A DNA stretch of 64,000 bases, taken from assembly GCA_965208945.1 (NCBI GenBank), contig OZ242366.1, positions 1,619,827 through 1,683,826 on the forward strand, given 5' to 3'. The notes below the pieces were generated by a model that saw only the letters and a list, made by a program, of their open reading frames with translations, searched no databases and was not told where the DNA came from. Every line of letters starts with the position of its first letter. Positions within the stretch are counted from its first letter, which is position 1. This DNA is from Bryobacterales bacterium. GTDB taxonomy: Bacteria > Acidobacteriota > Terriglobia > Bryobacterales > UBA6623. Of this stretch, positions 315 to 60,340 are shown one piece after another. The translations under genes were made by a program, and so were the position numbers.

Positions 315-409
315 TTGAACAGTACGTTGAGCACGGCAAGCAAGCGCAACGAAGTCCTGGCGGTCGTATCGCGTGCTTCGACCGTTGGGTGGTGAGAAAT
401 GCAGGCTAG
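315..409 (+). repeat. R1 hairpin element, right half only (truncated at its centre)
   Basis: ttgaacagtacgttgagcacggcaagcaagcgcaacgaagtcctggcggtcgtatcgcgtgcttcgaccgt-gggtggtgagaaatgcaggctag matches the right arm of the full copies at 40136-40320 and 47096-47280. The left arm is absent. Confidence 0.85.
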
Positions 410-5726: not shown

Positions 5727-5881
5727 TGGTTGGTTCCCGAGTACCATGGCGCTAAAGAAGGGCAGTGCGATGGCCGCCATTATCATAAGCGAGCCGTAGT
5801 CGAACTTCGTGGACACCTGAGTGGCATCGCCATGGGGAGTGGAAGGTACAAAGATCGAAACTATCCCGCCCCAGTTTCGTA

Positions 5882-6436
5882 TTGCATCAGGCGAGGTCGA
5901 TCGGTGTGTCTGACACCCTCAATTTCCTCGGCTGGGAGCGATTGGACAACCAATTGCATAGCCACAACCTGAACCAGGACAACCGAGGTCCTGCAGACGC
6001 CGTCATATCTCCAAACTGTCTGCCGATTCGTCAAACATCCATTGTCCGGCCGGCCTTATGGCGTAATGGACTCTGGGAAAGAGCCATCGAGCGGCACGAA
6101 GATCTGAAGTCGAAACACCGTGTGGGAACTTATGGGGCCACCATCGGCGAGAAGCGGTTGTTGGAGTTGACCGACATCATCGACTCTGCGGGTTTCATCC
6201 GAGCCGGAACTCTGGTTCTGTTGGCCGATGACACGCTTCTTACCGCCGGGTCACAATACAGCGAGTCGGCATTGCGCATCACCGCAGGTACGGGGTCCGC
6301 CGCCATCGTCACCCGTATCCGCCTGACGCCGCCAGGGAAAGACCAGCCCAAGGTGCTCTATTTCGACAGTGACGACGAACTACCTAGCGCAAACGGTAGT
6401 ACGCTCTTCGCCGAGCACACCGAAGAATGGCGCTGA
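5882..6436 (+). CDS. hypothetical protein (start uncertain; may begin at GTG 6122)
   Basis: 184-aa ORF in a lower-GC stretch. Only the C-terminal ~100 codons show the GC3-rich codon pattern of neighbouring genes. No recognisable family. Confidence 0.3.
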   Translation: MHQARSIGVSDTLNFLGWERLDNQLHSHNLNQDNRGPADAVISPNCLPIRQTSIVRPALWRNGLWERAIERHEDLKSKHRVGTYGATIGEKRLLELTDIIDSAGFIRAGTLVLLADDTLLTAGSQYSESALRITAGTGSAAIVTRIRLTPPGKDQPKVLYFDSDDELPSANGSTLFAEHTEEWR

Positions 6437-6511: not shown

Positions 6512-6587
6512 TGGTGAGACGGCTGGGACTCGAACCCAGGACCCACGGCTTAAAAGGCCGTTGCTCTACCAACTGAGCTACCGTCCC
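6512..6587 (-). tRNA. tRNA-Lys (anticodon UUU), CCA encoded
   Basis: The reverse complement reads GGGACGG-TA-GCTC-AGTTGGTA-GAGC-A-ACGGC-CTTTTAA-GCCGT-GGGTC-CTGGG-TTCGAGT-CCCAG-CCGTCTC-ACCA. This is a full cloverleaf with a 7-bp acceptor stem (one G:U) and anticodon TTT. Confidence 0.95.
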
Positions 6588-15988: not shown

Positions 15989-16173
15989 CTAGCCTGCATT
16001 TCTCACCACGAAGTGAGGTGAAGTGCGTGAGAGGGCCGTCAGGACGAGCCGCGAGCCGCTTGGCGCGCGCAGGCGTACTTGAACCGTACGTTGAGCACGG
16101 CAAGCAAGCGCAACGAAGTCCTGGCGGCCGTATGGCGCGCTTCGGCCGTCGGGTGATGAGAAATGCAGGCTAA
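15989..16173 (+). repeat. R1 hairpin element, complete (~185 bp)
   Basis: Termini are ctagcctgcatttctcaccac ... gtgatgagaaatgcaggcta. The internal sequence is nearly identical to 40136-40320. Confidence 0.9.
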
Positions 16174-16231
16174 GGTTTTTCACGAGTCACGAATCACGGC
16201 TTTTTCCGTGGCTCGTTTGGTGCATGTGGGT

Positions 16232-16256: not shown

Positions 16257-16469
16257 GCCGCCCCGGCCTGCTAGGCATGAGGACAGGGAGGCGGCCAGGC
16301 GCAGTCCGTGCGGGTCGCGAATCAAGGCGTTCACTAGCCGCAAGTCACTGATTTTAAGGTTTTTACAAGATACGAAGCACGGCTTTTGTTCACGAGTCAC
16401 GAAACACGAATCACGGCTTTTATGTTTTCACGAAACACGAATCACGTGGCTCGAACGATACATGTGGGT

Positions 16470-16493: not shown

Positions 16494-16955
16494 GCCGCCC
16501 CGGACGGCGTAGCATGAGGACAGCGAGTCGGGAATCCTGGCCCTCGCGAAGAAAAAAGCGGGCAAAATCGAGGAGGTGAGAGTACGCGCATGCGTCCGCG
16601 GCGAAGTTTGTCCTTCGTGGCGCCGGCCACCCCGGCCGACAGCACAAGCTGCAAGCCGCCCGCGCCGGCAACACGGCCTTTCAGGTTTTTCACGAATCAC
16701 GAGTCACGCAACACGAATCACGGCCTTTATGCTTTTCTCGCTGCTTTCCTGCGCGTTGCGGCGCGGCATGGGGCGGCTATGGGGCGCGGCATGGGCAGGG
16801 CCGCCGTCCCCCGCACCGGCAACACGGCCTGTTAGTTTTCACGAATCATGCAACACCGCATTTATCGCCGTTCGGCTCGCCGTGGGTGCGAAGGGGTCGC
16901 ACAACCGAAAACCGCCGTCCGGACCGCCGTGCCCGCCGCCAGGTCACGGCTTCCC

Positions 16956-16995
16956 TGTTCACGATTGTTCGCCATTGTTCGCTATTGTTCACTAT
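16956..16995 (+). repeat. four tandem 10-bp repeats TGTTCRCNAT followed by a T-run
   Basis: tgttcacgat tgttcgccat tgttcgctat tgttcactat, then tttttt. Confidence 0.7.
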
Positions 16996-17138
16996 TTTTT
17001 TATGGAGGGGATCCTGAACAAGTGTCCGCGCACCGTCCGCCGTTCTTGGTCAGCCTCGCGGCGAGTGCCGTTCTCCGCAGCTCCCGCCGCTCTCCCTCGA
17101 TTGCACAGACATGGGAACGTTTTCTGTTGCTTTGGCAG

Positions 17139-17344
17139 CTAGCCTGCATTTCTCACCACGCGGCGAGGCGAAGTGCATGAGAGGGCCGTCAGGACGAGGC
17201 GCGAGTCGGGCGGAGGAAAAAGGCGCGCGCAGTCGTACTTGAACCGTACGTTGAGCACGGCAAGCCAGCGTTGCGAAGGAAAAGCGAAGTCCTGGCGGTC
17301 GTATCGTGTGCTTCGGACGTCGGGTGGTGAGAAATGCAGGCTAG
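17139..17344 (+). repeat. R1 hairpin element, complete (206-bp variant with cgggcggaggaaaaagg insert)
   Basis: ctagcctgcatttctcaccacg ... gggtggtgagaaatgcaggctag. Ends 16 nt before the start of the next gene. Confidence 0.9.
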
Positions 17345-36605: not shown

Positions 36606-36782
36606 TGTTGTTGCGCTTGATTGCCGTGTTCAATGTAGCATCAAGTACGCCTCCACGCTCCAGCAGGCTCGCTCGTCCTGACAGACCTCTCCACATTTCG
36701 CCTCGTCGCGAGGTGAGAAACGCAGGTCCCTGATGCTGAGCAAGTCCCTTCTCCAGTAGACTGTCGCTGAGCAACCCTCTGC

Positions 36783-38864: not shown

Positions 38865-39188
38865 ATGTCGGACGAACACAGTGGAACGAATGTCGTCTGG
38901 TTCCTGACCGGAGCCGCGCTGGGCGCGTCGATTGCCCTGCTGCTGGCTCCGCAAACGGGCACCGAAACACGGCGGCTGGTCAAGCGGCGGGCCGTCGAGG
39001 GCCGAAGCGCCCTGATGCGGGGTGGCCGCGAAGCCTACGAGCACGGCCGGGAACTGTACGAAAAGGGCAAGGAACTTGCCGACGAAGCCAGCGGTGTGGT
39101 CGAGCGCGGCAAGGAAGCGGTTTCCAAGGTGGCAACACGAGTTCGTCCAGCCAAAGGCAGCGACGAAGCGGCGGCGGAGACAACCTAG
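38865..39188 (+). CDS. YtxH domain-containing protein
   Basis: VVWFLTGAALGASIALLLAPQTGTETR is typical of the YtxH N-terminus. Confidence 0.8.
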   Translation: MSDEHSGTNVVWFLTGAALGASIALLLAPQTGTETRRLVKRRAVEGRSALMRGGREAYEHGRELYEKGKELADEASGVVERGKEAVSKVATRVRPAKGSDEAAAETT

Positions 39189-39373
39189 GGACATCGATCC
39201 GGGTATGCGGGGAGCCCGTCAGGGAACAATATCCAAGTCCGGGGACCTTTGGCGAGCCGCAAGCACCGTCGTTGGGAACTACCGGTCGACTGGAAGTCCC
39301 GGCTTTCTCAAGTATGGTTTCGTCGTGCTTTCCCACAGCGGACGTTGTACGGACAGCCTGTCGCGCCAACGCT

Positions 39374-39638
39374 CTAGCCTGCATTTCTCACCACGTGGCG
39401 AGGCGAAGTGGGTGAGAGGGCAGCCAGGACGAGGCGCAAGCCGGGCGGAGGAAAAAGGCGCGCGCAGGCGTACTTGCCAAATCGCCTCCTTCATCCCTCG
39501 GGTCACGAAACACGGCCTCTCCGGTTCACCGGCCATCAGACATTTCTTCTGGAGCGAACTAGGCCCCCGTCAAGGGTTTTCACGAATCACGGCCTTTTCT
39601 CGCGTGCTCCGACCGGCAGGTGGTGAGAAATGCAGGCT
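39374..39638 (+). repeat. R1 long variant (R1b, ~265 bp, different core plus heptamer tract)
   Basis: The left end is the same as R1 (ctagcctgcatttctcaccacgtggcgaggcgaagtg). The core is ..atcgcctccttcatccctcgggtcacgaaacacggcc..ggccatcagacatttcttctggagcgaac..ggttttcacgaatcacggcctttt. The right end is ggtggtgagaaatgcaggc. Confidence 0.85.
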
Positions 39639-39683
39639 CACGGTTACTTCGGACGTTGCGTTACCTCGTATACTCAAGGGGCT

Positions 39684-39917
39684 ATGCCGATTTTCGAGTA
39701 CCATTGCTCCGATTGCGACACGCGGTTCGAGTGGCTCGTGTTGAACCGCCGCGTCGAAGATCCGAGTTGCACCGAGTGCGGCAGTGCGACCGTCAGGAAA
39801 GTCCACTCTACTTTTGCTGCCCAGACGATAAACGGATCGAGTGTGGGAGCGTCGGAGGCTCCTTCTGACGGCCTCTGCAACACCTGCGGCGTGCCGGGCC
39901 CGTGCGCGATGAACTGA
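39684..39917 (+). CDS. FmdB-family zinc-ribbon protein
   Basis: MPIFEYHCSDCDTRFE...CTECGS (CxxC...CxxC). The ATG at 39630 of the listed ORF lies inside R1 and was rejected. Confidence 0.8.
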   Translation: MPIFEYHCSDCDTRFEWLVLNRRVEDPSCTECGSATVRKVHSTFAAQTINGSSVGASEAPSDGLCNTCGVPGPCAMN

Positions 39918-40135
39918 CCGAGATACTCCTCTAACTGGCGACTGAGGTGCTCGATACGGCCGCCATGCCGCGATCGAGTCCACAGCAGAGGCTTACGAAA
40001 GGGAGCGGTGCAGGCATCGTCATCTGCGGATTCTCCATCACGCACCCCCTCACCGCCAAACCGGCCCGGCCTGCCCGCTGCGGTCTCGGAGGCAGCCTGC
40101 AGCGTGAAACGTTGCTGGTCATCCTCGCCATTCAC

Positions 40136-40320
40136 TTAGCCTGCATTTCTCACCACGTGGCGAGGCGAAGTGCGTGAGAGGGCCGTCAGGACGAGGCGCG
40201 CGCCGCTTGGCGCGCGCAGACGTACTTGAACAGTACGTTGAGCACGGCAAGCAAGCGCAACGAAGTCCTGGCGGTCGTATCGTGTGCTTCGACCGTCGGG
40301 TGGTGAGAAATGCAGGTTAG
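40136..40320 (+). repeat. R1 hairpin element, complete (archetype, 185 bp)
   Basis: ttagcctgcatttctcaccac ... gtggtgagaaatgcaggttag. Internal perfect hairpins are gcgcgcgcc-gctt-ggcgcgcgc and acgtact-tgaac-agtacgt. Confidence 0.92.
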
Positions 40321-41831
40321 CAGGCGAGTGAATCTCGATCGATCCGGAGGCCGCCCAGGTTGCCCAGGACAGCGAGAGCAATGCGGCTCGGCTGAAACCA
40401 CTCCCAAGCCAAATCGCGGATCTGAGCGTCTGTCACTTCCTCGATGCTGCGGCCTACTTCGTCAAGAGTCAGGAAGCGGCCCAGGTATTTCTCTTGCCGA
40501 GCCAGGTTTGACATGCGGCTCGAGGTGGATTCAAGACTCAGCAGCAGACTTCCCTTGAGGTGGTCTTTGGCGCGGCGTAGTTCGTCGCTGGCTACCGGTT
40601 TTTCCTTCAGATCCCGGAATTCGGCCGTCACGTGCTCCACGACCGCACGGGCCGTCTCGACCGAGGTTCCTGCGTACACCATCAGACATCCTGCGTCGGC
40701 ATACAGGCTGAAGTCCGAAAAGACCGCGTAGGCCAGTCCCTCGCGTTCCCGGATCTTCAGGAACAGCCGTGAGCTGACGCCGCCGCCGAGAACCGTGTTC
40801 AGGACGAAACTCGCGTAGCGCCTGGGGTCCGCCATGGGATGCGTGGGCACGCCCAGGCACACGTGCGCCTGTTCCAGCGAGGGCTTGTCCCGCATCACGA
40901 CCGCGGGATGCGCTTTCGGAGGGTCGGCGGGCTTTTTGTGCCGCTGCGCCTTGATGCCTTGGAAACGTTCCTCGATCATCTGTGCGAACTGCTGGTGGTC
41001 GAGATTGCCGGCAGCCGTCACGATCAGATTCGCCGGGTTGTAGGTCCGTGCGAAGAACCGCCTCAATTGAGGACGGTTGAAACGGGTGATCGTTTGCTTG
41101 TTCCCGATGATGGGCCGCCCCAGCGAATGACCTTTCCAGAAGTTCTTCGCAAAGGTCTCTTGCAGCAGGTAGTCGGGATTGTCCTCGTCCATCTTGAGTT
41201 CTTCGAGCACGACTCCCTTCTCCTTCGCAATATCCTCCTCTCGGAACAAGGGGTCGCGAACCATGTCGGAAACGACATCAAGGGCGCGAGGCAGGTGCTC
41301 ATCCAGTACTTTGGCTGTGAAAACAACGCTTTCTTTGGTGGTAAAAGCGTCCAGGTGCCCCCCGATCGCGTCGATCGAGCACGCGATTTCCTCGGACGAC
41401 CGCGTGGACGTGCCCTTGAAAACCATGTGTTCAATGAAATGCGTGATGCCGCTCTCATCGTCGGTTTCGTGACGGGAACCGGCGTCGACCCAAAAGCCGA
41501 TGGATACGGAGCGCACGTGCGGCATCCTCTCGGTGATGACGCGCAGGCCGTTCGGTAGAACCGTTTTCTGAACCTCCGGCATGGAATCGCTCGCGGAAAC
41601 CACCGTCGGAATTGCAACGCCGGGAATCAGGAACTGCGGATCGCTTTCGACGATCCCTTCCTCCTGGCTTTGCGAGCGCTGAATGCGCTTCCTGGCGGTT
41701 TCGCGGCGCTTGGCTTCGCGGGCTGCTTGCCGCATCTCGTAACCGTCAAGACGGTCACGAATGGCTGCAAGCAGGTCGGCCTTGCTTGGGCCCGGCAGCG
41801 GCAGCTTGAGCTGGCGTTCGCTTTTTGCCAT
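40317..41831 (-). CDS. M16-family (pitrilysin/insulinase) zinc peptidase
   Basis: GITHFIEHMVFKGT (HxxEH inverted zinc motif). There is an unusual ~90-aa Lys/Arg/Glu-rich N-terminal extension. The start is ATG 41831 or 41855. The stop codon TAA lies in the terminal TA of R1. Confidence 0.87.
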   Translation of the reverse strand: MAKSERQLKLPLPGPSKADLLAAIRDRLDGYEMRQAAREAKRRETARKRIQRSQSQEEGIVESDPQFLIPGVAIPTVVSASDSMPEVQKTVLPNGLRVITERMPHVRSVSIGFWVDAGSRHETDDESGITHFIEHMVFKGTSTRSSEEIACSIDAIGGHLDAFTTKESVVFTAKVLDEHLPRALDVVSDMVRDPLFREEDIAKEKGVVLEELKMDEDNPDYLLQETFAKNFWKGHSLGRPIIGNKQTITRFNRPQLRRFFARTYNPANLIVTAAGNLDHQQFAQMIEERFQGIKAQRHKKPADPPKAHPAVVMRDKPSLEQAHVCLGVPTHPMADPRRYASFVLNTVLGGGVSSRLFLKIREREGLAYAVFSDFSLYADAGCLMVYAGTSVETARAVVEHVTAEFRDLKEKPVASDELRRAKDHLKGSLLLSLESTSSRMSNLARQEKYLGRFLTLDEVGRSIEEVTDAQIRDLAWEWFQPSRIALAVLGNLGGLRIDRDSLAC

Positions 41832-42187
41832 GGCTCTCAAAACATCCTGACACAATCATGATCCAGGAGAACTTCCGATCGCAAGCTCCGAGGTTGCGGG
41901 TGCATCCATCGATCCGGTGTCACAACAGTGGGAGTGCGGCGTCTTGTGTGGTTTTGTTACTGAACGTTGTATTGATCGTCTCTCCCCCTTTATAACCCGA
42001 TAGCCCGAGGAATGCAGGTTGGAGTCGCACTGAAAATGCATCTTTTTGATATGGAAGGGGATAGAAACCCTTCGCTGAAGTGGTCACGGATTCGGTGGTT
42101 CTGTCGAGGACTCACTGCCGGGTTCCGGCCCGGCGGGTTAGAATGGCGGCCGGGTTCTGCGAAGTATCGGCAAGGGGAGTTTTCGGC

Positions 42188-43488: not shown

Positions 43489-43961
43489 TTAGCCTGCATT
43501 TCTCACCACGTGGCGAGGCGAAGTGCGTGAGAGGGCCGTCAGGACTAGCAGCCCGTGTCTAAAGTCCCGTGGAAGGCGCGGCGGGCTCCTGCGGTCGCTC
43601 GGCGCGAAGTGAGGAGGATGGCGATCCGGGTGATCTCCTCCGACGAACGACAAAGCCGACGGCCGCAAATGTCCGTCGCCCAAAGGGTTACGCGCCGCTT
43701 CCGCTCGGCCGCGCGGAGAGCGAGGCGCCACGTTCCTGGCACGGCTAGGCGTTACGCCAATGGTGCCGGGGCGCGTAACGCCGCCCGCGTGACTTTAGAC
43801 ACGGGCTGCTAGGCGCAAGCCGGGCGGAGGAAAAAGGCGCGAGCCGCTTGGCGCGCGCAGGCGTACTTGAACAGTACGTTGAGCACGGCAAGCAAACGCA
43901 ACGAAGTCCTGGCGCTCGTATCGTGTGCTTCGACCGTCGGGTGGTGAGAAATGCAGGTTAG
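43489..43961 (+). repeat. R1 element interrupted by the R3 MITE
   Basis: The R1 left arm runs to ..gggccgtcaggac (43545). R1 resumes at ggcgcaagccgggcggaggaaaaagg (43812) and ends gtggtgagaaatgcaggtta. Confidence 0.9.
43546..43811 (+). mobile_element. R3 MITE (~262 bp plus TA duplications), nested in R1
   Basis: Terminal inverted repeats are TA-gcagcccgtgtctaaagtccc ... gggactttagacacgggctgc-TA. An uninterrupted R1-type site caggacTAggcgcaagccggg exists at about 55896-55916. Confidence 0.8.
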
Positions 43962-44492: not shown

Positions 44493-44610
44493 ATAGCCTG
44501 CATGTCTCACCACGTGGCGAGGCGAAGTGCGCGGGAGGGCCGTCAGGACGAGGTGCGCCGCTTGCGCCAGTAACGCGGCATGTAATGTTTTCACGAATCA
44601 CGGCGTTTGC
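44493..44610 (+). repeat. R1 fragment (left arm plus short heptamer tract, no right end)
   Basis: atagcctgcatgtctcaccacgtggcgaggcgaagtgcgcgggagggccgtcaggacgagg ... gttttcacgaatcacggcg. Confidence 0.75.
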
Positions 44611-47095: not shown

Positions 47096-47280
47096 CTAGC
47101 CTGCCTTTCTCACCACGTGGCGAGGCGAAGTGCGTGAGAGGGCCGTCAGGACGAGGCGCGAGCCGCTTGGCGCGCGCAGGCGTACTTGAACAGTACGTTG
47201 AGCACGGCAAGCAAGCGCAACGAAGTCCTGGCGGTCGTATCGCGTGCTTCGACCGTCGGGTGGTGCGAAATGCAGGCTAG
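47096..47280 (+). repeat. R1 hairpin element, complete
   Basis: ctagcctgcctttctcaccac ... gtggtgcgaaatgcaggctag. Confidence 0.92.
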
Positions 47281-47415
47281 GCGCGAGCCGGGCTGAGGAA
47301 AAAGACGCGAGCAACAAGGCCTTTCAAGGTTTTTCACGAATCACGAGACACGAGACACGAATCACGGCCTTTTAATCGCCTGCTTCGACCGTCGGGTGGT
47401 GCGAAATGCAGGCTA
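47281..47415 (+). repeat. R1-related fragment (core remnant, 4.5-unit heptamer tract, right terminal repeat)
   Basis: gcgcgagccgggctgaggaaaaag..ggtttttcacgaatcacgagacacgagacacgaatcacggcctttt..cgaccgtcgggtggtgcgaaatgcaggcta. Confidence 0.8.
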
Positions 47416-60156: not shown

Positions 60157-60340
60157 TGGCCTGCATGTCTCACCACGTGGCGAGGTGAAGTGGGTGAGAG
60201 GGCCGTCAGGACGAGGCGCGCGCGGCTTGGCGCGCGCAGGCGTACTTGAACCGTACGTTGAGCACGGCAAGCAAGCGCAACGAAGTCATGGCGGTCGTCT
60301 CGCGTGCTCCGACCGTCATGTGGTGAGACATGCAGGCTAA
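60157..60340 (+). repeat. R1 hairpin element, complete, inserted in the 5' end of the second DUF1501 gene
   Basis: tggcctgcatgtctcaccacgtggcgaggtgaagtgggtgagagggccgtcaggacgagg ... cgaccgtcatgtggtgagacatgcaggctaa. Confidence 0.92.

What the first reader, a model, noticed from the sequence alone, without database searches (positions are those of the whole stretch)
40136..40320. R1: a ~185-bp TA-flanked element that folds into one long hairpin, much better on the + strand than on the - strand
The archetype copy has 21-bp terminal inverted repeats: (t)tagcctgcatttctcaccac ... gtggtgagaaatgcagg(t/c)ta. The arms continue to pair inward. The centre carries two perfect small hairpins, gcgcgcgcc-gctt-ggcgcgcgc and acgtact-tgaac-agtacgt. 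I paired the 29 arm positions between the terminal repeats and caggac/gtcctg by hand. About 15 are Watson-Crick, 7 are G:T(U) wobbles and 7 are mismatches (one of them A:C). On the complementary strand the 7 wobbles become A:C mismatches. The structure is therefore clearly better for a + strand transcript or + strand ssDNA. That is not expected for a plain DDE-type MITE, whose hairpin is only a by-product of its inverted repeats. I do not recognise the sequence as any known RNA family, REP or IS end.
Basis: seen in the sequence. Interest (0 to 1): 0.7.

Follow-up and report, generated by a model that had tools for sequence, protein, structure and literature searches.

The report
Hairpin mini-transposon with strand polarity
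R1 is a 177-bp non-coding mini-transposon built from the right end of an IS1380-type insertion sequence and copied about once every 4 kb in some soil Acidobacteria; one of its strands folds far better than the other and all intact copies point the same way along the chromosome, which suggests that DNA replication, not RNA function, shapes it.

Summary
The archetype folds at -120.7 kcal/mol on the + strand against -93.1 on the - strand, and the + strand folds better in 66 of 66 distinct canonical copies.

The "TA flanks" are the middle of a 4-bp YTAR target-site duplication. A sister genome has the empty site (CACT-TTAG-CAGG), so the archetype is a recent insertion. The element proper is 40140-40316. 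Its 17-bp termini, and about 45 bp of its 5' arm, match the right end of a 1.7-kb IS1380-family insertion sequence that sits in the same Bryobacterales chromosomes in multiple identical copies with CTAG duplications. R1 is therefore a DDE-type MITE of IS1380, not a Stowaway/IS630-type element and not a known RNA.

It still has unusual features:
- Sixteen of 18 non-Watson-Crick positions favour the + strand.
- Variants that keep + strand pairing reach higher copy number.
- Orientation ignores neighbouring genes (15 sense, 19 antisense) but agrees between neighbours (53:10 and 42:5).
- Intact young copies split 32:0.
- Orientation tracks a T>A strand-composition polarity.
- The parent IS does not follow this polarity.

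I infer a replication-linked, single-strand DNA effect. Orientation-dependent hairpin loss is most likely, and strand-specific mobilisation is the more novel alternative.

The parts
40136..40139 (.). Left copy of the 4-bp target-site duplication (TTAG)
   Evidence: The sister genome L085 has a single TTAG at the empty site. The 4-bp YTAR duplication is shown on 143 elements.
40140..40316 (+). R1 archetype, element proper (177 bp, CCTGCA...TGCAGG); lineage-specific insertion
   Evidence: It is absent from the syntenic locus L085.
40140..40156 (+). Left 17-bp terminal inverted repeat CCTGCATTTCTCACCAC. It starts the 5' arm (to about 40192), which is homologous to the right end of the IS1380-family element.
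   Evidence: termini table; 42/60 identities with the IS right end read inward, against 34/60 with the left end.
40196..40238 (+). Central module with two perfect mini-hairpins (40196-40217 and 40220-40238). The second shows C:G to T:A compensatory change among copies.
   Evidence: pair columns 124/140: CG 52, UA 8, AU 7.
40300..40316 (+). Right 17-bp terminal inverted repeat GTGGTGAGAAATGCAGG. It ends the 3' arm, a diverged inverted copy of the 5' arm.
40317..40320 (.). Right copy of the duplication (TTAG). Its TTA supplies the TAA stop codon of the M16 peptidase gene on the - strand.
315..405 (+). 3' half of an R1 copy (right flank CTAG)
15993..16169 (+). Canonical R1 copy (flanks CTAG / CTAA)
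17143..17340 (+). R1 variant with two short inserted modules (flanks CTAG / CTAG). The left flank supplies the stop codon of ORF 16576-17142.
36610..36726 (-). Old, partial, diverged copy (79.5% identity); the only inverted copy in the window
39378..39636 (+). Long variant whose centre is replaced by a heptamer-repeat module. It is window-specific (absent in L085) and its flanks do not match (CTAG / CTCA).
43493..43957 (+). R1 copy (flanks TTAG / TTAG) carrying a 24-bp module and a nested second element. The orthologous copy in L085 is a plain 183-bp R1.
43549..43808 (+). Nested 260-bp hairpin element of another family (ends CAGCCCGTGTCTAAAGTC...), inserted at R1's internal CTAG with CTAG on both sides
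44497..44564 (+). 5' fragment of an R1 copy
47100..47276 (+). Canonical R1 copy (flanks CTAG / CTAG) sitting in the remains of an older variant
47281..47412 (+). 3' part of the older heptamer-type variant (L085 has that variant intact). Inferred history: nested insertion, then deletion between the direct 5' arms.
52851..53113 (+). Long heptamer-type variant (flanks TCAG / TTAA)
53806..53938 (+). Diverged partial copy (78% identity)
54027..54105 (+). Isolated 5' arm (left flank TTAA)
55507..55536 (+). Isolated 3' terminus (right flank CTAG). Together with 54027 it brackets a host gene, but the flanks do not match.
55642..55919 (+). Two diverged 5' arms (55642-55677 and 55854-55919) with heptamer modules between them
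60160..60336 (+). Canonical R1 copy (flanks CTGG / CTAA)

Best explanation
R1 is a non-autonomous transposon (MITE) of the IS1380 family.

Shown:
- It is a 177-bp element with 17-bp terminal inverted repeats.
- It inserts at YTAR tetranucleotides (CTAG > TTAG > CTAA > TTAA) and duplicates all 4 bp.
- The archetype copy and several others are lineage-specific insertions with clean empty sites in a sister genome.
- A 1.72-1.73-kb autonomous IS encoding an IS1380-family DDE transposase has near-identical termini and CTAG duplications. It is present in multiple identical copies in the same Bryobacterales chromosomes.
- R1's 5' arm is homologous to that IS's right end for about 45 bp. The 3' arm is a diverged inverted copy.

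Inferred: the IS1380 transposase moves R1 in trans by ordinary double-strand DDE chemistry.

The strand-asymmetric hairpin is real, but it is a DNA-level feature, not an RNA-level one. R1 copies ignore gene direction. They obey a chromosome-wide strand polarity that the non-hairpin parent IS ignores.

My preferred mechanism (about 0.4) is a replication filter. When the strongly folding strand lies on the strand that is single-stranded at the fork, the hairpin promotes slippage deletion between the 4-bp direct repeats, or cleavage. Only one orientation then persists. Master lineages whose mutations weaken one strand's hairpin most (A:C on -, seen as G:T on +) last longer and leave more copies.

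The confidence figure refers to the identity and mobilisation claim. The filter is one of two live sub-mechanisms.
For: Identity:
- Empty site TTAG in L085 against TTAG[R1]TTAG in the window. Reciprocal case at window 39186-39189.
- On 143 elements the two 4-bp flanks match exactly in 64. Positions 1 and 4 agree 108 and 109 times against permutation means of 73 and 86 (maxima 92 and 102).
- L177 ORF: NCBIfam NF033539 at 414 bits (cut-off 180) and Pfam PF13701 at 521 bits.
- L001 has R1 and the IS abutting, each flanked by CTAG.
- Transposases 88-94% identical lie on OZ241991.1, OZ244625.1 and two other Bryobacterales chromosomes, with 8 identical copies in one.
- 14 of 17 IS copies have perfect 4-bp duplications, 13 of them CTAG.
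- Arm homology is 42/60 to the IS right end.

DNA-level polarity:
- Sense against antisense intergenic regions 15:19.
- Nearest-neighbour orientation 53:10 (p = 3e-8), replicated at 42:5 (p = 2.5e-8) in loci chosen through the IS.
- Concordant against discordant copies 122:8; intact young copies 32:0.
- Third-codon-position T>A component on R1's top strand: +0.035 (CI 0.016-0.051) and +0.087 (CI 0.059-0.115).
- IS against R1 orientation: 7 anti, 4 co, 4 mixed loci.
- All lineage-specific insertions in the window and in L085 share the local orientation.

Asymmetry and filter:
- + folds better in 66/66 copies.
- 16 of 18 non-Watson-Crick positions carry G on +.
- Stem transitions per site: C>T 1.41 against G>A 0.41; A>G 1.63 against T>C 0.53.
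- Singletons 13:16 but shared variants 16:6, Mann-Whitney p = 0.029, at independent insertion sites.

Established background:
- From my own knowledge: orientation-dependent deletion of asymmetric palindromes between direct repeats (Trinh and Sinden 1991).
Against: - Trans-mobilisation by the IS1380 transposase is not demonstrated. The Bryobacterales IS termini differ from R1's at 2-4 of 17 positions, although L192 and L193 have an exactly matching right end.
- Only 45% of elements keep a perfect duplication. One window copy (39378-39636) has non-matching flanks.
- Which replication strand carries R1's + strand is unresolved, and the proxies disagree. T>A and a weak, non-significant G>C put + on the leading-strand sequence, that is the lagging-strand template, which would contradict the loss model. 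Highly expressed genes (S15/PNPase in L215; L27/L21/Obg in L220; tRNAs 3 opposite to 1 same) put it on the other strand.
- Both strands still form strong hairpins (DNA -57 against -45 kcal/mol), so a large difference in loss rate is not guaranteed.
- R1 orientation flips at least 10 times along OZ241991.1. That requires many intra-replichore inversions if the cue is replication.
- The frequency-spectrum signal is modest (p about 0.03). Singletons may include assembly errors of low-coverage MAGs.
Confidence: 0.85

Rival explanations
1. Strand-specific mobilisation. R1 is excised, or chooses its insertion orientation, as a single-stranded + strand hairpin exposed at the replication fork. The two ends are brought together by intrastrand pairing. 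The + strand fold is then selected for mobility, and insertion is polar from the outset. This would give a DDE (IS1380/piggyBac-type) MITE a single-strand stage resembling IS200/IS605 behaviour.
For: - Variants that keep + strand pairing reach higher copy number at independent sites, while singletons are balanced.
- Intact young copies are 32:0 concordant, and all lineage-specific insertions share the local orientation.
- The polarity is specific to the hairpin element and absent in the parent IS.
- If the usual keto-rich leading-strand rule holds, T>A and the weak G>C place the + strand on the lagging-strand template.
- Neighbouring copies are not closer relatives, so the cue acts at each insertion rather than through local copying.
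Against: - No DDE transposase of this family is known to use single-stranded substrates.
- The same data fit rapid orientation-dependent loss.
- The direction relative to replication is unresolved, and highly expressed genes point the other way.
- The 4-bp duplications are typical of staggered double-strand target cleavage.
Confidence: 0.22
2. Functional RNA. R1's + strand is transcribed into a structured RNA (an sRNA, a cis-acting stabiliser or terminator, or a processing site) and G:U pairs are maintained by selection on that RNA, as proposed for bcr1, ERIC or Correia elements.
For: - G:U-rich asymmetry.
- Compensatory changes: 32 pairs change on both sides against 13.6 in shuffles.
- Precedent: bcr1 is mobile, transcribed, and keeps its RNA structure by compensatory change (PMC3184786).
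Against: - Orientation is random relative to flanking genes (15 sense against 19 antisense).
- No promoter-like or terminator-like signal.
- No Rfam match even at E = 10.
- Singleton substitutions in resident copies are not biased (13:16), so individual copies look unconstrained.
- Orientation follows a chromosome strand polarity instead.
- The centre of the element is freely swapped between modules.
Confidence: 0.06
3. No selection at all. The asymmetry is a by-product of strand-biased mutation (deamination C>T and A>G on the strand more often single-stranded), accumulating in a family whose copies all share one polarity, or it is a founder accident.
For: - Both C>T and A>G are elevated in stems, as ssDNA deamination predicts.
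- R1's + strand lies on the T-enriched chromosome strand.
- The nested unrelated hairpin element at 43549-43808 also folds better on the same strand (-156 against -136).
Against: - Neutral-site skews are tiny (G>C 0.01-0.02, T>A 0.03-0.09) compared with a 3:1 substitution ratio and a 16:2 consensus.
- Singletons, the direct read-out of in-situ mutation, are balanced (12:10 and 13:16).
- Six mismatches are G:G or G:A, which deamination does not create.
- Unpaired positions show no C>T excess over G>A.
- It does not explain why intact copies are 32:0 concordant.
Confidence: 0.1
4. One reading: an ordinary TA-specific Stowaway-like / IS630-Tc1-mariner MITE.
For: Almost every copy has TA immediately outside GCC...GGC.
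Against: - The duplication is 4 bp: positions 1 and 4 co-vary between the two flanks beyond all 5000 permutations.
- The empty site is TTAG.
- The matching autonomous element encodes an IS1380, not an IS630, transposase.
Confidence: 0.01

Closest known systems
IS1380 family of insertion sequences (ISEcp1, ISPme1, IS1247, IS1380)
   Same: Autonomous relatives of R1 encode an IS1380-family DDE transposase (NF033539 / PF13701). They are 1.7 kb long, end in CC, and make short duplications (4 bp here; 5 bp for IS1247 in PMC3281130). Cassettes in which R1-type ends bracket passenger genes (L184, L176) recall the 3'-adjacent DNA mobilisation (TMos) described for ISPme1 and ISEcp1 (PMC9330008).
   Different: R1 has no transposase. 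Both of its ends are of the right-end type, and its body is a foldback hairpin. I found no description of an IS1380-derived MITE in the searchable literature. The strict YTAR target is not, to my knowledge, a stated family feature.
piggyBac transposons (eukaryotic relatives; IS1380 is used as their prokaryotic outgroup, PMC10813416)
   Same: 4-bp duplication of a TA-centred palindromic tetranucleotide (TTAA for piggyBac, PMC7351741; YTAR including TTAA here). Termini begin with CC.
   Different: The preferred target is CTAG rather than TTAA. Seamless excision and hairpin intermediates, documented for piggyBac (PMC7351741), are untested here. The host is bacterial.
Bacterial MITEs with RNA-level structure (bcr1 of Bacillus cereus; ERIC; Correia/nemis)
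   Same: Small, multi-copy, TIR-bounded and flanked by short direct repeats. They are polymorphic between close relatives and fold into long hairpins with compensatory changes (PMC3184786 for bcr1).
   Different: Those are discussed as transcribed elements that act on mRNA. R1's orientation ignores transcription and follows a chromosome strand polarity.
IS200/IS605 elements and their PATE derivatives; REP/REPIN-RAYT systems
   Same: Works like them in two respects: strand-asymmetric hairpins and an orientation tied to a chromosome strand. For IS200/IS605 this stems from single-strand transposition at the fork (my own knowledge: Ton-Hoang et al. 2010). REPINs are hairpin doublets (PMC3116915).
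   Different: Not a member. R1 has true terminal inverted repeats and a 4-bp target duplication. Its partner is a DDE transposase, not a Y1/HUH enzyme. There is no GTAG/CGTC tag (PMC3733652).
Palindrome instability at replication forks (SbcCD cleavage; slippage deletion between direct repeats)
   Same: A long imperfect palindrome flanked by short direct repeats is the classic substrate. Hairpins form on the lagging-strand template (PMC3315005).
   Different: That work used artificial palindromes in E. coli. Here the same logic would be acting as an evolutionary filter on roughly a thousand natural copies per genome.

Membership tests
MITE (non-autonomous DDE transposon) | Terminal inverted repeats | tested here: met
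   17-bp CCTGCATTTCTCACCAC / GTGGTGAGAAATGCAGG at both ends of every full copy.
MITE (non-autonomous DDE transposon) | Target-site duplication and an empty site in a relative | tested here: met
   TTAG[R1]TTAG against a single TTAG in L085. Reciprocal CTAG case as well. 4-bp duplication statistics on 143 elements.
MITE (non-autonomous DDE transposon) | Small, non-coding, many copies | tested here: met
   177 bp. About 13 insertions in the 64-kb window. 63 copies in about 246 kb of loci chosen independently of R1.
MITE (non-autonomous DDE transposon) | Autonomous element with matching termini in the same genome | tested here: met
   1724-1734-bp IS with termini CCCGGAWATYTCACCA / CCCGCATTTCTCACCA on OZ241991.1, OZ244625.1 and two other Bryobacterales chromosomes. 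It abuts or is nested in R1 in L001, L212 and L213.
IS1380 family (as the source of the ends and the transposase) | IS1380-type DDE transposase in the autonomous relative | tested here: met
   NF033539 at 414 bits (cut-off 180); PF13701 at 521 bits. Homologues are named IS1380 family transposase [Bryobacterales bacterium].
IS1380 family (as the source of the ends and the transposase) | Short (4-5 bp) duplication and CC termini (family features recalled from ISfinder; IS1247 DR 5 in PMC3281130) | tested here: met
   4 bp for R1. 14 of 17 IS copies have perfect 4-bp duplications. The ends are CC...GG.
IS1380 family (as the source of the ends and the transposase) | R1 ends homologous to the IS ends beyond the terminal repeat | tested here: met
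   The 5' arm has 42/60 identities with the IS right end read inward, against 34/60 with the left end.
IS1380 family (as the source of the ends and the transposase) | R1 is actually moved by that transposase | not testable with these tools
   Needs a transposition assay.
IS630 / Tc1-mariner / Stowaway-like MITE | 2-bp TA target duplication | tested here: not met
   The duplication is 4 bp (YTAR). Flank positions 1 and 4 co-vary. The empty site is TTAG.
piggyBac-like behaviour | Specific TTAA target with 4-bp duplication | tested here: inconclusive
   The duplication is 4 bp and TA-centred, but the preferred target is CTAG (55) over TTAG (29), CTAA (15) and TTAA (6).
Known RNA families (Rfam 15, including the acidobacterial motifs) | Covariance-model match | tested here: not met
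   No hit at gathering thresholds in the window. Only chance-level hits at E up to 10 on 39300-40400.
Cis- or trans-acting structured RNA (generic) | Fixed orientation relative to transcription, or its own promoter/terminator | tested here: not met
   15 sense against 19 antisense co-directional intergenic regions. No promoter or terminator signal.
Cis- or trans-acting structured RNA (generic) | A discrete transcript exists | not testable with these tools
   Needs strand-specific RNA-seq or end mapping.
IS200/IS605-derived PATE or REP/REPIN-RAYT | No terminal inverted repeats and no target duplication; Y1/HUH transposase partner; GTAG or CGTC tag for REPs | tested here: not met
   R1 has TIRs, a 4-bp duplication and a DDE partner. 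No GTAG tag is visible at the ends.

The most novel reading that the evidence does not exclude
A DDE transposon of the IS1380/piggyBac lineage has produced a MITE whose mobilisation or integration runs through a single-stranded hairpin of one specific strand at the replication fork. Its insertion is therefore polar with respect to replication. That behaviour is so far known only for HUH (IS200/IS605) transposons.
Probability: 0.2. Interest if true: 0.8.

Novelty: new variant of a known kind. Interest (0 to 1): 0.55.

Why it matters
Three things matter.

1. It defines what appears to be an undescribed MITE superfamily built on IS1380 right ends. It is found in metagenomes from soil, sediment, sludge and sea water. 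In Bryobacterales it has expanded to roughly one copy per 4 kb, with nested insertions, swapped modules and passenger-gene cassettes.

2. Its strict YTAR 4-bp duplication gives a bacterial counterpart to piggyBac's TTAA specificity.

3. The family is a natural experiment of about a thousand copies per genome. An imperfect palindrome has two strands that fold with very different stability. All intact copies obey one chromosome polarity, while the non-hairpin parent IS does not. Mapping the copies against ori and ter on the available complete chromosomes would directly test whether hairpins on the lagging-strand template decide which insertions survive, or whether a DDE-mobilised element can transpose in a strand-specific way. 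It would also provide a polarity marker for genomes whose GC skew is too weak to read.

Tried and rejected
- **Rfam.** Gathering and permissive scans gave nothing beyond a tRNA.
- **Transposases next to single termini.** I looked in L004, L005, L023, L033 and L042 and found none. The 54027-55536 bracket in the window holds a host BNR-like gene with non-matching flanks.
- **TA / IS630 reading.** Rejected by the 4-bp analysis.
- **Sense 3'-UTR element.** Rejected.
- **Local copying (local hopping) as the cause of shared orientation.** Rejected: neighbours are no more similar than distant copies.
- **Bulk GC skew and coding-strand share as replication proxies.** Uninformative.
- **tRNA orientation as a proxy.** Only 5 tRNAs, useless.
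- **'The IS shares R1's polarity, with R1's genuine right-end arm co-oriented with the IS right end'.** This looked true at 4:0 and dissolved with more loci: 7 anti, 4 co, 4 mixed.
- **Splitting transitions into C>T and A>G to exclude deamination.** This does not exclude it, because ssDNA deamination gives both. The argument against mutation bias rests instead on the small neutral-site skews and the balanced singletons.
- **Literal search for the terminal sequence in papers.** No hit.
- **Fuzzy-regex arm search.** Timed out and was replaced by blastn.
- **RNAalifold on the mixed alignment.** It recovered only the outer stem, because the central modules differ. I therefore used the archetype's structure with the count of structure pairs.
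Full report
**Observation.** Folded as RNA, the + strand gives -120.7 kcal/mol (z = -12.8 against dinucleotide shuffles) and the - strand -93.1 (z = -8.6). With DNA parameters the values are -65.6 and -51.5. A mirrored count over 81 positions of the hairpin gives 63 Watson-Crick pairs, 10 G:T, 2 C:A and 6 purine:purine mismatches (G:G, G:A). So 16 of the 18 non-Watson-Crick positions carry a G on the + strand. On the - strand these become C:A, C:C or C:T. Rfam has nothing like it.

**A large, modular family.**
- The terminal 20-mer occurs 21 times in the window, against none expected by chance. blastn finds about 13 insertions in the window.
- Four are canonical 177-bp cores: 15993-16169, 40140-40316, 47100-47276 and 60160-60336. 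The rest are longer variants, fragments and nested composites.
- An alignment of 73 full-length copies from the window and from public genomes shows two conserved outer arms of about 55 nt. The centre is swapped between modules.
- Exact-match scans found the terminus in more than 84 genome blocks and more than 120 metagenome contigs. Most genome hits are Bryobacterales (Acidobacteriota) MAGs, including complete chromosomes.
- In other phyla the same terminus brackets hairpin elements with unrelated interiors. The terminus is therefore the recognised part.

**It is a transposon, and the duplication is 4 bp.**
- A close relative (L085, about 96% nucleotide identity, syntenic over 14 kb) reads ...GCAC TTAG CAGGCGAG... 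The window reads ...TCAC TTAG [CCTGCA...TGCAGG] TTAG CAGGCGAG.... The archetype is thus a lineage-specific insertion.
- The reverse case also exists: the window has an empty CTAG at 39186-39189 where L085 carries an element.
- Across 143 elements the four bases outside CC...GG match exactly in 64. Positions 1 and 4 agree between the two flanks more often than in any of 5000 permutations. The target consensus is YTAR: CTAG 55, TTAG 29, CTAA 15, TTAA 6.
- The 'TA flanks' are therefore the centre of a 4-bp duplication.

**The autonomous partner is an IS1380-family element.**
- Among the metagenome loci, L177 (1897 bp) and L193 carry the same termini around an ORF that scores 414 bits on NCBIfam's IS1380 transposase model (cut-off 180) and 521 bits on Pfam DDE_Tnp_1_4.
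- L001 shows ...GGA CTAG [R1] CTAG [IS, 1724 bp] CTAG... on one contig.
- Proteins 88-94% identical to the L001 transposase are named 'IS1380 family transposase [Bryobacterales bacterium]'. They lie on the same chromosomes that are full of R1: at least 3 copies on OZ241991.1 and at least 8 identical copies on a 5.86-Mb contig.
- Fourteen of 17 IS copies have perfect 4-bp duplications, 13 of them CTAG.
- R1's 5' arm read inward matches the IS right end for about 45 bp (42/60 identities, against 34/60 with the left end). R1 is thus a right end plus a diverged inverted copy of it.
- The literature uses IS1380 as the prokaryotic outgroup of piggyBac (PMC10813416). piggyBac likewise duplicates a TA-centred tetranucleotide (PMC7351741).
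- I found no published IS1380-derived MITE.

**The asymmetry is family-wide and not a chance feature.**
- The + strand folds better in 66 of 66 distinct canonical copies, by 25.9 +/- 5.4 kcal/mol (RNA) or 12.7 +/- 3.4 (DNA).
- Two copies of a subfamily with different inner arms (L020) show the same bias in the same orientation.
- On the archetype's structure, 91% of cells pair. Thirty-two pairs change on both sides, against 13.6 in shuffles (0 of 500 shuffles reach that). Watson-Crick compensation counts equally for both strands, though.
- The strand-specific signal is G:U against A:C. In 45 canonical copies there are 419 G:U cells and 22 A:C cells.
- Stem transitions per site are C>T 1.41 against G>A 0.41, and A>G 1.63 against T>C 0.53.
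- Singleton variants are balanced (13 G:U-creating against 16 A:C-creating). G:U-creating variants reach higher copy number at independent insertion sites: shared variants 16:6, Mann-Whitney p = 0.029.
- So resident copies decay about neutrally, and the bias arises in what gets propagated or retained. Caveats: modest power, and possible assembly errors among the singletons.

**Orientation.**
- R1 does not care about genes. In co-directional intergenic regions it is sense 15 times and antisense 19 times.
- It does care about its neighbours. Nearest-neighbour pairs agree 53:10. In 15 loci fetched through the transposase, and so chosen independently of R1, they agree 42:5.
- In loci with a clear majority orientation, 122 copies are concordant and 8 discordant. 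The 8 are old or fragmentary, and intact young copies split 32:0.
- Lineage-specific insertions in both the window and L085 share the local orientation.
- Neighbours are not closer relatives than distant copies, so local copying is not the cause.
- Third codon positions of surrounding genes, whichever strand they are on, are T-enriched on R1's top strand: +0.035 (CI 0.016-0.051) in 90 loci, and +0.087 (CI 0.059-0.115) in the replication set. G>C is positive but not significant.
- The autonomous IS does not follow this polarity: 7 anti, 4 co, 4 mixed loci.
- Orientation domains flip at least 10 times along OZ241991.1. Under a replication cue this needs many inversions. The multiple identical IS copies in both orientations could provide those inversions (inference).

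**Mechanism.**
- Shown: R1 is an IS1380-type MITE that inserts at YTAR with a 4-bp duplication, and it has been active since the window's genome split from its sister.
- Inferred: the co-resident IS1380 transposase moves it in trans.
- The asymmetry and the polarity point to a single-strand DNA effect tied to replication rather than to RNA.
- My preferred reading (about 0.4) is a filter. Hairpins form on the lagging-strand template (PMC3315005). They promote cleavage or slippage deletion between flanking direct repeats, more so for the more stable strand (my own knowledge: Trinh and Sinden 1991). Only one orientation then persists. Lineages whose mutations weaken one strand most, seen as G:T on the other strand, last longer.
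- The more novel alternative (about 0.2) is that the + strand hairpin is itself the substrate or guide for mobilisation, which would make insertion polar from the start.
- The two readings predict opposite strands on the lagging-strand template. My proxies disagree: T>A with weak G>C points one way, while the orientation of ribosomal-protein and tRNA genes points the other. I cannot decide between them here.
- A functional RNA (about 0.06) and pure mutation bias (about 0.1) are disfavoured, for the reasons listed under the rival explanations.

**Verdict.** It is partly wrong: R1 is not TA-specific, and it does carry a recognisable IS end. R1 is a new MITE family of a known IS family, with two properties that ordinary MITEs are not known to have. 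The available complete chromosomes make their cause directly testable.

Noticed in passing
window 43549-43808 (CTAG at 43545-43548 and 43809-43812); another terminus near 51280: A second, unrelated 260-bp hairpin element (ends CAGCCCGTGTCTAAAGTC...GACTTTAGACACGGGCTG) is nested in an R1 copy at R1's internal CTAG, with CTAG duplicated. It also folds better on the + strand (-156.1 against -136.4 kcal/mol). It is absent from the orthologous R1 copy in L085.
   Followed up: partly
window 16181-16194, 16391-16411, 16429-16442, 16691-16704, 47335-47362, 53044-53064, 53987-54014, 54177-54204, 55778-55798, 55977-55990: Runs of a heptamer repeat (CACGARW)n, usually within GGTTTTTCACGAATCACG...CACGGCCTTTT modules. 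They occur both inside R1 variants and on their own. All ten runs in the window are in the same (+) orientation.
   Followed up: partly
window 43545-43548; L001:169-176; L213 around 5879-5905: The 207-bp R1 variants carry a 24-bp module that creates an internal 'GGA CTAG GCGC' site. This site is a hot spot that has been hit by another R1 (L001; inferred at window 47100), by the unrelated nested element (window 43549) and by the autonomous IS itself (L213).
   Followed up: yes
L184:4669-6093; L176:31-1995; window 54027-55536: R1-type termini bracket passenger genes: a methyltransferase between perfect 45-bp inverted repeats (L184), a hydrolase-like ORF (L176), and in the window a 430-aa BNR-like gene whose flanks (TTAA / CTAG) do not match. 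These look like mobile insertion cassettes or the TMo-type captures described for IS1380 elements.
   Followed up: partly
window 40317-40319 and 17140-17142: Two host genes end in the duplicated target: the TAA stop of the M16 peptidase (40317-41855, - strand) and the TAG stop of ORF 16576-17142. Insertion at a stop codon containing TA leaves the stop intact, because the target is duplicated.
   Followed up: yes
L216 (ERZ21830300 ctg717612c, 3219223-3236668): A third relative, syntenic with window 34-48 kb, has the autonomous IS1380 element itself between the penicillin amidase and Zincin_1 genes. The window has only an R1 fragment there (44497-44564). All 7 R1 copies in that locus share one orientation.
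   Followed up: partly
L060, L061 (Singulisphaera MAG), L018 (Terriglobia), L013, L021/L039 (Verrucomicrobiota), L032, L064: The same 17-20-bp terminus flanks hairpin elements with unrelated interiors in several phyla. Some have one left-end-type (CCCGGAT...) and one right-end-type (CCTGCAT...) terminus. Several short R1-bearing contigs are binned in unlikely phyla (for example L001 as Gammaproteobacteria), which may be binning error.
   Followed up: partly
window 39378-39636 against L085rc ~5480: This window-specific long variant has non-matching flanks (CTAG / CTCA), and the 'empty' site in L085 reads GCTCTCGTGG. Only 45% of all elements keep a perfect duplication. This suggests frequent recombination between copies, or decay.
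   Followed up: no
window 6515-6587 (- strand): A tRNA gene, the only Rfam hit in the window. It lies on the strand opposite to R1's + orientation.
   Followed up: partly
L211:5038-5943; L226:6465-7409: Other transposase genes (IS110-type DEDD; IS1595-type) lie directly beside IS1380 copies, so these sites look like insertion hot spots.
   Followed up: no
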